Position numbers and translations under genes: made by a program
Source of the DNA: Eledone cirrhosa
Taxonomy: Eukaryota
Assembly (NCBI GenBank): GCA_964016885.1
Contig: OZ024752.1
Location: 12,586,001 to 12,650,000 of the forward strand
Direction of reading: 5' to 3'
Length of the DNA stretch: 64,000 bases
Shown: piece by piece, positions 1 through 60,751 of the stretch
Numbering within the stretch: position 1 is the first letter of the stretch
Layout: each line of letters starts with the position of its first letter
The notes under the pieces: model-generated
The model's input: only the letters and a program-made list of their open reading frames with translations
The model's database searches: none
What the model was told of the DNA's origin: nothing

Positions 1-410
1 CATACTGTCTATATGCTTCAGCTTCAGCCTGTACCTGTTGAATTTCTTTAATTTCTTATTCGCCTTATGTTCTATTTTGGTATGGTCTCTTCATGTCTAT
101 TGCAATGAGCGCGCTGATTTAGGTTTTCACACTTGTTTTTATCGAGTAGGTTCCACGATTGAAATAATAATGGATGCTTCTATGCATTTAGTATCGTATC
201 TATCTAAATTCCTATTATATATATATTGTGGGCTTCTTATATACAAACATTGGCATATTTCTTTTTATATATATATGTAGGAGTTTTATTTAATTTGTTG
301 GAATTCCGACAAACATAAATGTTCATAACTGATATAGAGAACTCAACAAGTTACTGTAGTAAATATTCCAAGATAATAATAAATGGAAACTATATTTATA
401 AAACCATATT

Positions 411-475
411 TATTTTATTATATATATTTCAAGGGCGACCAAGCAAATCTTGGTGCGCTTTCATCAGATAAAATA
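411..475 (-). ncRNA. Type I hammerhead motif, mirror copy in the left arm of the palindrome
   Basis: Reverse complement of 615-679 (tcatcag at 461-467). Confidence 0.8.
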
Positions 476-614
476 CAAAATTTGTTTTATAAATAATGAC
501 ATACCCATGGAAATCACACCATAACGGTCCGAAATTTGCTGGACTATCCAGCGAATTTCGGACCTTTAAGATGTGATTTCCATGGGTATGTCATTATTTA
601 TAAAACAAATTTTG

Positions 615-679
615 TATTTTATCTGATGAAAGCGCACCAAGATTTGCTTGGTCGCCCTTGAAATATATATAATAAAATA
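615..679 (+). ncRNA. Type I hammerhead ribozyme motif (Penelope-type, palindromic stem III)
   Basis: Stem I tattttat(615-622)/ataaaata(672-679); CUGAUGA 623-629; stem II aagcgcaccaag...cttggtcgccctt; GAAA 660-663; self-complementary stem III atatatat; predicted cleavage after A671. Confidence 0.8.
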
Positions 680-859
680 AATATGGTTTTATAAATATAG
701 TTTCCATTTATTATCTTGATATATATAAATAAAATTGCTCGCTTTGGAAGCATCAACAATGCAGATGGGTAAATCTCCGAGTAACAGAACCCAGTGGTAA
801 TGAGAGAGAAAGAGATGTAAGAAGAAATGTAGAATGAGACGTAGGAAAAGTGTAAAAAT

Positions 860-2594: not shown

Positions 2595-5500
2595 GAATAT
2601 GAATCCGTGAGCTACCAAGCACCCATGTGAAGCCCCAATCCAGAGAGAGGAAGCACACACACACCCCTGCAAAAATCGACCCTTCCCTACGAGTGTCGAC
2701 AAATGCCCAAAACTCTGAGTTGGAACCATCAATGTAGGCTCAATGAAAGGAAGAGCAGGAGAAATCGTAGAAATGCTAGAGCGAAAGGAAATTGATGTAT
2801 GCTGTGTGCAAGAGACTAGATGGAGAGGAGAGTCTGCTAGAGTCCTTTTAGGAAAAAGTCAGTGCTACAAATTTTTCTGGGTGGGAAATGACGATGGGAT
2901 GGGTGGTGTAGGTATACTATTAGCTGACAAGTGGGTAGATAAAGTAATCTCAGTGTACAGGGTAAATGCAAGAATCATTAAACTCAGACTAGTCCTGAAT
3001 AAAACAATTACCACAATAATATCAGCTTACGCACCCCAATCGGGGTTGCCAGACGAACTTAAGGATAGATTTTACAAGTCTCTAATACACACTACTGCTC
3101 TAACAGACGACAATGACTTCCTAATCATTGCAGGAGATTTTAACGGACATGTAGGTAAACACTGTGACGGCTTCTATAGAGTCCATGGGGTTGGCACAAG
3201 AAATGAAGAAGGATTCAGACTTCTAGAATTCTGCGACGCCAATGACATGTCGATATGTAACACAAACTTCAAAAAACCCGACAACCACCTGATCACCTAT
3301 AGATAAGGGGAGCATTCTAGTCAGATAGATTTTATCCTCATCAGAGGACGTGACAGATGGACGGTCGTAAACACAAAAGCCTTCCCTAGTGAGGAATGTA
3401 CCTCCCAACATAGCTTAGTTGTCAGCGACCTCACGGTCAGAACTAGACGAACCTGGAAACAGAGGCCAACCTGGAGAAGAAAGATCTGGAAGCTGAAAGA
3501 CCCCTCAGCCAGTAACAGATTTAAAGATATTTTACTCAACGCCTATGACAGTAGAGAAGAACAGATAGACATTCAATGTAGAAGAGCACTGGGAGTTCCT
3601 AAAAAATAACTTACTAGAGGCGACGGATGAGGTCTGTGGCTGGAGTAAGACCACAAGCAGGAGGAGAGTGACTTGGTGGTAGAACAATAAGGTAGATGAG
3701 GCAGTTAAGGCCAAGAGACAGGCATGGAAAGAATGGAAGAACGGGGGGAGCAGGGTACATTACATAGAGACCAAGAGGGAAGCTAGGCGACAAGTATACT
3801 TAGCTAGGAGGCAAGCAAAGGATAGAAAATTCAAGCATGTTTTGCAACGTGAGGACCAGAAACAGGAGGTGTTCAATATTGCGAGGCAGTGTGTCAGAGA
3901 TAGTTGTGATGTCATTGGAGAGAAGTGTATCCGGAATGATAAAGGTGAGCTTGCCCTCACAAGTGCTGAGAAGAAAGATGCATGGAAGAGTCATTATGAT
4001 AGATTACTAAATGAGGAGAATGCATGGGAAGAAGAGACCCTACCCCAAGTAGACCCTATAGAGGGGCCAGCAGTACAAGTCAGCAGCAGCGTAGTAAGTA
4101 AGGCAATCAAAGATATGAAGATGGGGAAGGCAACCGGTCCATCGGGTATAGCTGCCGAGATGCTGAAGGCATCTGGGTCTGTAGGTTACACTATAACCAC
4201 ACGTATTGTTAACCAGGTAATACGAGAAGGTGTCATACCAAAAGATTGGTGCAGTAGCATCATTGTCAACTGCTACACAGGTAAAGGTGATGCATTCGAT
4301 AGAGGTATAAAGCTGATGGACCAGGTCATGAAAGTAACAGAAAGAGTTATAGCACAGTTGATTAGGGACCGGGTGAAACTAGATGAGATGCAATTTGGGT
4401 TTGTACCAGGAAGAGGCACCACTGATGCCCTCTTCCTTGTGAGGCAGTTACAGGAAAAGTACCTAGCTAAAAGTAAGCCACTCTACCCGGCATTCGTCGA
4501 TCTCGAGAAAGCCTTTGACAGAGTTCCACGTGCTATAATCTGGTGGGCTCTTAGAAAACTAGGAGTAGATGAATGGCTTGTGAAAGCTGTACAAGCCATG
4601 TATAGGGGAGCAGTCAGCAAAGTTAGGATTAGCAATGAGTTAGGATTAGCAATGAGTATAGGCTGGTGTCCACCAGGGCTCTGTTCTTAGCCCTCTCCTG
4701 TTCATCATAGTCCTGCAGGCAATAACGGAGGAGTTTAAGACCGGATACCCATGGGAACTCCTGTATGCTGATGACCTCGCACTTATAGCTGAATCTATGG
4801 TAGAGCTAGAGAAGAAATTCCAAACTTGGAAGCAGGGACTAGAAAGAAAGGGTCTCAAAGTCAACATGACAAAGACTAAGGTCCTTGTAAGTAAACGAGA
4901 AAACAGAACCCAGATCCCCTCTAGGAAATGGCCTTGCTCAGTATGTAGGAAAGGTGTTGGTTGGAACTCCATTCTCTGCCCCAAATGCAAACAATGGGTA
5001 CACAAGAGATGTAGCGGGATCTCAGGAAGCTTAATTAAGAATGTAGGCTTCACATGCAGCAGCTGTACTGGGACAGCAAACAGCCACAGGAAACAAGTAC
5101 CACCAATCTCTGGGAGGGCTCTGTAGAGACAGTAGACAGCTTCTGCTACCTAGGTGACCGAATTAGCAGCAGAGGTGGGTGTTCAGAAAGTACAATAACT
5201 AGGGTAAGAACGGGATGGAAGAAGTTCAGGGAACTGCTACTGCTAGCTGCAAAAGGCTTCTCCCTCAAAATGAAAGGCAGACTGTATGATGCGTGTATCT
5301 GAACAGCAATGTTACATGGTAGTGAGACCTGGGCGCTGAAGGTGGAAGGCTTACGTAGATTAGAGAGAAACGAAGCCTGCATGCTCCGATGGATGTGTAA
5401 TAGTAATATACGTGAACGACAAAGCATAAATGAATTGAGAGAGAGACTGAGCATAAGAGGAATCAAATGCTGTGTGCAGGAGAAGAGGTTGGTATGGACA

Positions 5501-21308: not shown

Positions 21309-21749
21309 TATATATATATATATATATATAATTTTATACCTAATTGTGTATGGTTGACGGTATATTTAGTCGATTTCCACGTGCTATTGAAATGTTGGGT
21401 AAATATTCTATGGCGGTCGGCTGCGAAGAGATTGCTGTCATTTATTTATCTAATATTTCTTCATCCTTTTAATCTTATAGCCTGGTCTAATTGATTTTTT
21501 ATGTTGTTGATTATGCTAATTGGGAGAGGAAATGGTGTATATATATTATCAAATGATTCTTTGGACATACTTTATATTATATATGTATATATATATCCAA
21601 GGAAAACTTGAACCGTTAAGGTATATTCTCCTTGGTTATGTCAAAATTTATAAAACACACTTCGTATTTTATCTGATGATAGCGTACCAAAATTTTGGTA
21701 CCCTTGAATAAATATGGTTTTATAAATATAGTTTCCATTTATTTAATAT

Positions 21750-21825
<76 letters not shown>

Positions 21826-37964: not shown

Positions 37965-38293
37965 TATCATTTTTACGTCCACTTTTCCCTGCTTGCAAGG
38001 GTGGGAAGGGAACTGATTCTGGCTTGATTTCTACAGCTGGATGCCCTTCCTAACACCAACCTCATTTACAGTGAGTGCTGGGTGATTTTTTGCCGTGGCA
38101 CCTGCACGACCACTTTACAGTGGAATGATAGGGACCCCAGTCCCTATCATCTCATTTCTACAGCTGAGTAAACTGGAGTAATGTGAAATAAAGTGTCTTG
38201 CTCAAGGAAACAACACATCACCCGGACTGAGAATTGAACTCACAACCTTTCGATTGCAAGACCAATGCTCTAACCACTAAGCCATGTGCCTCC
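37965..38293 (-). mobile_element. SINE family B, full-length
   Basis: Reverse complement of 6023-6370. Confidence 0.88.
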
Positions 38294-49922: not shown

Positions 49923-50114
49923 TGTGAAGGCACATGGCTTAGTGGTTAAAGCATTGGGCTTGCAATCGAAAGGTTGTGAGTTCAATTCTCGGACCGGGTG
50001 ATGTGTTGTTTCCTTGAGCAAGACACTTTATTTCAGTTTACTCAGCTGTAGAAATGAGTACCGGCCTGCCCGCCCAGCCAGTGGGATGGCGTTATCTTAT
50101 GGCTAAAACAGCAC

Positions 50115-58408: not shown

Positions 58409-58479
58409 GATGTGTTGGTGTAATGGTAGCACAGTGGTCGCGATAACCAAAGATGTGGGTTCGACTCTCATGTACGTCA
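58409..58479 (+). pseudogene. tRNA-like sequence (pseudogene or orphan SINE head)
   Basis: A box tggtgtaatgg and B box ggttcgactc; a cloverleaf can be drawn only with many G-U pairs; anticodon loop cgcgata lacks U33. Confidence 0.5.
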
Positions 58480-59928: not shown

Positions 59929-59950
59929 TGTAATAAACAACATAAGATAA

Positions 59951-60018
59951 TTATTTCATTTACCAGTGGTTTCTTGAAAGCAGATATTGTATCTGTTTTC
60001 AGTCGTCAGAATGAATAA
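59951..60018 (-). ncRNA. Type I hammerhead motif (inverted partner at 60601-60661, +)
   Basis: Reverse complement reads ttcatt CUGACGA ctgaaaacagata-caa-tatctgctttcaa GAAA cca-c-tgg UA aatgaa; the plus copy has a 7-nt deletion in stem II. Confidence 0.8.
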
Positions 60019-60751
60019 AAATCATGGTGTTTTTATTAAATATGGATTTGAAAACAAAATTGAAGAAATAAGAAGGCTGAGAAAAAAACGGGCGAAAAAG
60101 AAGAGGGGAACAAATATATATAAACAATAAATATCCAGAACATAAACACACACACACTCAACCGCGCGCATATACTTAAAAAGTACGAAGACGTATACTT
60201 TTTCACGTAAACGTAATAGCGTCTACATACAGGGACATAAATACATACACATACATATACAAGAAGTAATAAATAAATAAAAACAAAAAATATACAAAGT
60301 CAAAAACAAAATAAAGACAAAGAGGAGACGTGTTGACAACGATAAGTATGAGTGTGTGTGTGTGTGGGGAGGGGGGGAGGGGAATTAAAACAAATTAAAA
60401 ATAAATAAATACACGAGATGTGATATACATAAATATATATATATAAATATACACATACATACACACGCACACACACACATACATGTATAGAAAATCATAC
60501 ACACGTATAAAAACACACACACACATGCATGTGTATATATATATCTATATTTCTTAAATTTTGTTTTCAAATCCATATTTAATAAAAAACACCATGTTTT
60601 TTATTCATTCTGACGACTGATACAACATCTGCTTTCAAGAAACCACTGGTAAATGAAATAATTATCTTATGTTGTTAATTACATAACTAATAAGCTCTGT
60701 AGCCTACATAGAACACTCTTTTTTCCTGTACCTTTCCGACGGAATTACTTC

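What the first reader, a model, noticed from the sequence alone, without database searches (positions are those of the whole stretch)
369..719. Clean ribozyme palindrome with identical hammerheads on both strands
Seen: ~170-bp arms with an 8-bp stem I, canonical CUGAUGA/GAAA, a long stem II and a self-complementary AUAUAUAU stem III. A single-arm relative with a deleted core lies at 21661-21740. Inference: a transcript from either strand contains a ribozyme plus its full antisense, so the long hairpin should outcompete ribozyme folding. Fold-back could therefore be a built-in off switch that lets such insertions persist in introns.
Basis: partly seen in the sequence, partly recalled or inferred. 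Interest (0 to 1): 0.7.

Follow-up and report, generated by a model that had tools for sequence, protein, structure and literature searches.

The report
Mirror-image Penelope retrotransposon stub
This palindrome is two short back-to-back copies of the hammerhead-bearing end of a very abundant Penelope-type jumping gene, a common and already described insertion shape that is likely a by-product of copying rather than an evolved off switch.

Summary
The palindrome is real: arms 376-543 and 547-714, 4 mismatches, identical type-I hammerhead motifs on both strands. Each arm is the end (pLTR) of a Hydra-clade Penelope-like retroelement (PLE). The same sequence follows RT/GIY-YIG-type ORFs elsewhere in this genome. 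A 34-mer from it has 23,054 exact copies. The shape is routine: 40 of 74 sampled sites have a head-to-head partner, 22 of 74 are tight double-hammerhead palindromes, and 28 of 32 classifiable pairs have one tailed and one untailed arm, as here. Head-to-head pLTRs with a one-sided tail are published for PLEs, including a Hydra element with hammerheads on both strands. The hairpin is predicted to beat the ribozyme fold by 94 kcal/mol, but a single arm is also predicted to fold poorly alone. Cores are intact equally often in palindromic and other copies (16 of 21 vs 10 of 14). Intron location is unverified. The off switch is a physical side effect; selection for it is unsupported. The scan has reported this architecture on other DNA before (227 notes).

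The parts
266..276 (.). (TA)n target run at the tailed end
   Evidence: sequence; 22 of 22 resolved tailed ends and 26 of 31 untailed ends in the chromosome-1 sample abut such runs
277..367 (-). 91-nt tail of the left arm; in near-full-length elements it continues into the leader about 50 nt before the ORF ATG
   Evidence: L116, L117
368..543 (-). left arm: 5'-truncated pLTR of a Hydra-clade PLE
411..475 (-). type-I hammerhead motif, minus strand (core at 467-461, predicted cut after 419)
   Evidence: mirror of 615-679
543..547 (.). apex: both 5' ends meet at the family's truncation hot spot
   Evidence: 27 loci genome-wide share this apex, 2 with the same spacer letters; 16 of 47 short copies start in a 7-nt window
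547..718 (+). right arm: 5'-truncated pLTR without tail
   Evidence: 96% identical over 168 nt to the end of the ORF-bearing copy L080
615..679 (+). type-I hammerhead motif, plus strand (CUGAUGA 623-629, GAAA 660-663, predicted cut after 671)
   Evidence: pairing kept across subfamilies
719..727 (.). (TA)n target run at the untailed end
   Evidence: sequence
21612..21755 (+). single-arm copy of another subfamily with a 15-nt deletion over GAAA, stem III and the cut site
   Evidence: 23 copies genome-wide match a pattern for such deletions, in several subfamilies

Best explanation
This is a short, two-armed insertion of a Hydra-clade Penelope-like retroelement into a (TA)n run, likely made when the element's protein nicked both target strands and copied the 5' part of the element RNA once from each nick. 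Shown: both arms are the hammerhead-bearing pLTR of an RT/GIY-YIG-type element; they meet head to head at a recurrent 5' end; their outer ends fall at two fixed sites 91 nt apart, one per arm. Inferred: the two fixed sites are the two internal reverse-transcription start sites, the shared 5' end is the RNA's start, and the two cDNAs were joined at the apex. Any read-through transcript is predicted to form a roughly 165-bp hairpin that blocks the ribozyme fold. That is a consequence of the geometry, not a selected switch. The hammerhead belongs to the element's own life cycle, likely as a dimer- or protein-assisted ribozyme.
For: Arm follows long ORFs: L080 (595-aa frame, arm 96% identical); L116 has pLTR+tail, a 743-codon frame and an untailed pLTR. 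The ORF has RW, DKT, YRDD-type, CxCx5C, CxxC and CxH motifs, the Hydra-clade diagnostics of PMC8557442 section 11. An AlphaFold model (mean pLDDT 85.9) has telomerase RT as top Foldseek hit (E 7.6e-9). Copy number: 888 exact 25-mers of the core and 23,054 exact 34-mers 3' of it. Geometry: 40 of 74 chromosome-1 sites have a head-to-head partner and 2 of 74 a tail-to-tail neighbour; in listed matches, 9 vs 0 and 13 vs 2. Ends: 28 of 32 classifiable pairs are tailed/untailed (p about 1e-5). Literature: head-to-head is the most frequent arrangement and the tail sits on one inverted pLTR (PMC3846280 passages); Penelope-13_HM has an inverted copy with hammerheads on both strands (PMC8557442 supplement); an anole PLE protein cuts and extends both strands, starts at two internal RNA sites that define the tail, and its hammerhead cleaves only with protein (PMC11167929).
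Against: Pfam and PDB sequence searches did not recognise the ORF as RT or GIY-YIG. The GIY-YIG call rests on motifs read by eye; the fold hits listed were RTs and viral polymerases. No phylogeny against published Hydra sequences was built. The tail (91 nt) is longer than the published 30-40 nt. A target-site duplication cannot be resolved in (TA)n. The two-primer step is inferred; Arkhipova et al. 2013 proposed self-priming instead. All four arm mismatches cluster within 25 nt of the right arm's start (post-hoc p 4e-4), which this model does not explain.
Confidence: 0.8

Rival explanations
1. One reading: fold-back is a selected off switch that lets an otherwise harmful active ribozyme persist in introns.
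For: The hairpin is predicted to dominate on both strands and to form co-transcriptionally. HHR-bearing retrozymes are reported as depleted from Xenopus introns (preprint 10.64898/2026.07.22.740005, passages). A possible splice donor lies 7 nt after the stop of an ankyrin-repeat gene about 7.1 kb upstream, so a 3'-UTR intron is not excluded.
Against: Geometry is explained by insertion mechanics. The single arm is predicted nearly inactive as a monomer; a single S. mansoni PLE hammerhead showed no cleavage (PMC4209133) and the anole one needs protein. Intact cores: 16 of 21 palindromic vs 10 of 14 other copies, Fisher p = 1 (small sample, not restricted to introns). Unpartnered copies are plentiful (34 of 74).
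Confidence: 0.07
2. The mirror arm arises by fold-back self-priming or template switching of one cDNA, or by later hairpin-mediated duplication, rather than by two priming events.
For: Proposed for rotifer PLEs. 3 of 57 palindromes have zero arm mismatches yet share 2-7 variants against neighbours (L070, L073, L129), which fits arm-to-arm copying.
Against: Simple fold-back copying does not predict that the two arms end at different fixed sites in 28 of 32 pairs. This locus has 0 shared variants. Median arm-arm divergence is 5.1%, as for independently ageing arms.
Confidence: 0.1
3. The palindrome is a self-propagating unit (MITE- or retrozyme-like) or an assembly artefact.
For: 27 loci share the apex region; arms are near-identical; no listed read piece spans the apex.
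Against: Spacer letters at the apex and arm lengths differ from locus to locus. No tandem array here. No A-to-G hyper-editing in 53 palindromes. The arms differ by 4 substitutions, an indel and the tail; a contig of run X1 spans the left junction (9-309) with no differences.
Confidence: 0.03

Closest known systems
Hydra-clade EN+ Penelope-like elements (Craig et al. 2021, PMC8557442), e.g. Penelope-13_HM and Hydra-1_Obim
   Same: RW, DKT, CxCx5C, CxxC and CxH motifs; C-terminal endonuclease region; canonical 3' hammerhead; (TA)n targeting; inverted 5'-truncated copy with hammerheads on both strands (Penelope-13_HM).
   Different: Hammerhead sequence differs from that listed for Hydra-1_Obim, so a different family. 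L116 spans about 4 kb against 'generally <3 kb'. Tail 91 nt against 30-40 nt.
PLE insertion architecture in Adineta vaga (Arkhipova et al. 2013, PMC3846280)
   Same: Head-to-head inverted pLTRs, tail on one inverted pLTR, palindromic junction.
   Different: Here the insert is only the two pLTR stubs; no resolvable TSD; the family has tens of thousands of copies.
PLE hammerheads (Cervera and de la Pena 2014, PMC4209133) and Poseidon_Ac (Frangieh et al. 2024, PMC11167929)
   Same: Type-I hammerhead in the pLTR with a short palindromic helix III and long helix II; dual hammerheads on opposite strands 100-700 bp apart were noted in S. mansoni; two fixed 3' ends bound the tail.
   Different: Stem II closes with A-U rather than the usual G10.1-C11.1 and has a C.C mismatch at its fourth position; both ends lie upstream of the ATG rather than inside the ORF.

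Membership tests
Penelope-like element (EN+) | Telomerase-like RT in a single ORF | tested here: met
   AlphaFold model pLDDT 85.9, top Foldseek hits TERT; Pfam and PDB sequence searches negative
Penelope-like element (EN+) | C-terminal GIY-YIG endonuclease | tested here: inconclusive
   VVY..YxG motifs conserved in the 41-sequence alignment; no profile hit; the domain was not fold-searched separately
Penelope-like element (EN+) | pLTRs flanking the ORF, inverted 5'-truncated copies, one-sided tail | tested here: met
   L116: pLTR+tail, ORF, pLTR; 40 of 74 sites head-to-head; 28 of 32 pairs tailed/untailed
Hydra clade | RWK-like, DKT, CxCx5C linker, CxxC and CxH around E and N | tested here: met
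   RWR, DKT, CNCRNKSNC, CSLC..E..N..CKH in L116 against section 11 of PMC8557442
Hydra clade | (TA)n insertion preference and canonical hammerhead | tested here: met
   22 of 22 tailed and 26 of 31 untailed resolved ends abut TA/CA runs, 21 of 74 unresolved; hammerhead
Hydra clade | Groups with published Hydra RTs in a phylogeny | not tested
   no tree with reference sequences was built
Type-I hammerhead ribozyme | Core CUGANGA / GAAA / NUH with helices I-III | tested here: met
   96.8% of cells paired in 19 distinct copies, double-sided changes at 3 of 5 stem II pairs, slid controls 40-61% (related sequences, so events are few)
Type-I hammerhead ribozyme | Self-cleavage | not testable with these tools
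   monomer predicted weak; 1 of 212 arm hits starts at the cut site, so no genomic trace of cleavage
Non-LTR retrozyme | Tandem non-coding monomers with at least two hammerheads in the same orientation | tested here: not met
   opposite orientation, no tandem at this locus; 1 same-strand pair among the first 100 matches

The most novel reading that the evidence does not exclude
The hammerhead is active in host transcripts (protein-assisted or in trans), and because the insertion mechanism puts the antisense arm first on both strands, palindromic copies are self-silenced and survive in sense-strand introns where single arms are purged. A transposon's insertion geometry would then act as a built-in safety for its own ribozyme.
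Probability: 0.07. Interest if true: 0.55.

Novelty: new member of a known kind. Interest (0 to 1): 0.15.

Why it matters
As a single locus it is ordinary. The family is a useful natural data set: tens of thousands of copies with two fixed 3' ends, a sharp 5' hot spot and strict tailed/untailed pairing could test how PLEs build their mirror halves, which is still unresolved. It also adds long double-stranded-RNA templates to this genome in large numbers.

Tried and rejected
Rfam at gathering threshold: no hammerhead hit. Pfam and PDB sequence searches missed the RT. A first AlphaFold run on 9 sequences was unusable (pLDDT 31). The protein atlas gave no answer. A direct genome-wide count of whole palindromes was not obtained; samples were used instead. 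Expression: no RNA holder listed. Intron status: the open frames I read in the window (stop to stop, 70 aa or more; output partly cut) looked mobile-element-derived or non-coding; small exons cannot be excluded, and the question stays open. Hammerhead cleavage as the source of 5' ends: rejected, 1 of 212 arm hits starts at the cut site. ADAR hyper-editing of these hairpins: not seen in 53 palindromes, none at this locus. Exceptional cleanness: rejected, 13 of 57 palindromes are as similar or more. A domesticated conserved element: run X5 (another organism) shows little depth over the arms and none at the apex, not pursued. Two literature searches for an antisense off switch of intronic or PLE hammerheads gave no direct hit; this does not show absence from print. 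Supplements of the bioRxiv preprint were not seen.

Full report
Observation. The inverted repeat is as described: arms 376-543 and 547-714, 168 nt, 98% complementary, with four mismatched pairs near the apex and one 3-nt indel at the outer end. A motif scan finds a type-I hammerhead at 615-679 (+) and its identical mirror at 475-411 (-), with a predicted cut after AUA at 671. Rfam's gathering threshold misses it. The relative at 21612-21743 is 76% identical and lacks 15 nt over GAAA, stem III and the cut site.

What the arm is. The window lies in a 3.0-Gb genome; an octopus-type host is my recall plus an earlier AI note, not tested. A 25-mer of the ribozyme core has 888 exact copies and a 34-mer just 3' of it 23,054. 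Longer copies extend upstream into an ORF. In L080 the arm (96% identical) follows a 595-aa frame. L116 reads pLTR with tail, a 743-codon frame, then a pLTR without tail; in L116 and L117 the tail runs on to the ATG about 50 nt later. The protein has RWR, DKT, YRDD-type, CxCx5C, CxxC and CxH motifs, conserved in 38 database relatives. These are the diagnostics given for the Hydra clade of PLEs (PMC8557442 section 11). Pfam and PDB sequence searches did not name it. A confident AlphaFold model (pLDDT 85.9) has telomerase RT as best fold match. The endonuclease call rests on motifs only.

The palindrome is routine. I examined all 74 distinct chromosome-1 sites among the core matches. Of these, 40 have a head-to-head partner within 1.3 kb, 22 are tight palindromes with two full hammerheads, 34 have none in range (long copies may have one further away), and 2 have a tail-to-tail neighbour. 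In 32 pairs both outer ends could be classed and 28 are one tailed, one untailed (p about 1e-5); 8 pairs were unclassifiable. An independent list gave 13 head-to-head against 2 tail-to-tail neighbours within 1.5 kb among the first 100 matches. Of 47 short copies, 16 start in a 7-nt window at this locus's apex, and 27 loci have an exact palindromic apex there, with varied spacers. Arm-arm divergence in 57 palindromes (pooled from differently selected samples) has median 5.1%; this locus is at 2.4%, and 13 of 57 are as clean or cleaner. It is simply a fairly young insertion.

Mechanism. For an anole PLE, the protein cuts and extends both target strands, starts reverse transcription at two internal RNA sites that bound the tail, and its hammerhead cleaves only with protein and is not needed for insertion in vitro (PMC11167929, parts 1-2 of 4 read). 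Applied here by inference: one cDNA starts at each site from each nicked strand of a (TA)n target, both run off near the RNA's 5' end, and they are joined head to head. This explains the geometry, the one-sided tail and the shared apex. Self-priming (PMC3846280, passages) remains a rival, and 3 of 57 palindromes look arm-copied. The apex clustering of this locus's four mismatches is unexplained.

The ribozyme and the off switch. Helix pairing is kept across subfamilies with double-sided changes in stem II, so the motif is a maintained part of the element. In the full 369-719 RNA the active fold costs 94 kcal/mol, and the hairpin is almost fully zipped before the cut site is made. But a lone arm has only a 2-bp A-U stem III, a predicted active share of 1.8e-4 and a dimer duplex of -3.2 kcal/mol (nearest-neighbour model, no tertiary contacts or Mg2+). 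A single schistosome PLE hammerhead did not cleave (PMC4209133, parts 1-2 of 4 read). In a sample chosen on sequence outside the core (26 sites after dropping 4 duplicate loci; 2 truncated arms dropped), cores were intact in 16 of 21 palindromic and 10 of 14 other copies; two of the five palindromic 'breaks' are gap calls in the TA run. The test is weak and not restricted to introns. Context: an ankyrin-repeat gene ends about 7.1 kb upstream with a possible donor site just after its stop. No RNA holder was listed, so intron status is open.

Prior knowledge. Inverted 5'-truncated copies, tails and (TA)n bias are standard for PLEs (PMC8557442 passages). Penelope-13_HM carries hammerheads on both strands (supplement part 2 of 59). 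Opposite-strand hammerhead pairs were noted in 2014. The scan holds 227 notes with these words in at least 33 genomes (AI notes, not support). What differs here is the family, its 91-nt tail and the A-U-closed stem II.

Verdict. Real, ordinary, a new member of a known kind. Interest 0.15.

Noticed in passing
window 59930-60073 (-) and 60543-60692 (+): A second head-to-head hammerhead pair of another family (cores at 60009 - and 60610 +), arms about 150 nt with about 470 nt between them, the left end at a TA run.
   Followed up: partly
window 2440 (+) and 62673 (-): Two further single hammerhead-like motifs next to TA runs, each with relatives in fetched loci; probably other PLE families.
   Followed up: partly
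window 21700 and 22 other loci (L202-L221): Recurrent deletions of 11-15 nt spanning stem III and the cut site in several subfamilies; microhomology or TA slippage is the simplest cause, template jumping over a cleaved RNA is not excluded.
   Followed up: partly
L070, L073, L129: Palindromes with zero arm mismatches but 2-7 shared variants against neighbours, suggesting arm-to-arm copying.
   Followed up: no
L130:796-3303, L130:8863-9153, L034:1854-2051 and 2752-3159: Exons of an ankyrin-repeat gene ending about 7.1 kb upstream of the palindrome (IkB-like by recall), with a GT donor-like site 7 nt after the stop.
   Followed up: partly
L051: Three head-to-head pLTR palindromes in a row within 1.5 kb, suggesting repeated insertion into or beside earlier copies.
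   Followed up: no
L067:6586-8777 (-): A second, more distant Hydra-type PLE family (41-44% protein identity) with a frameshift.
   Followed up: no
window 38226-38285, 49935-49992, 58409-58479: tRNA-like Rfam hits, probably tRNA-derived SINE heads.
   Followed up: no
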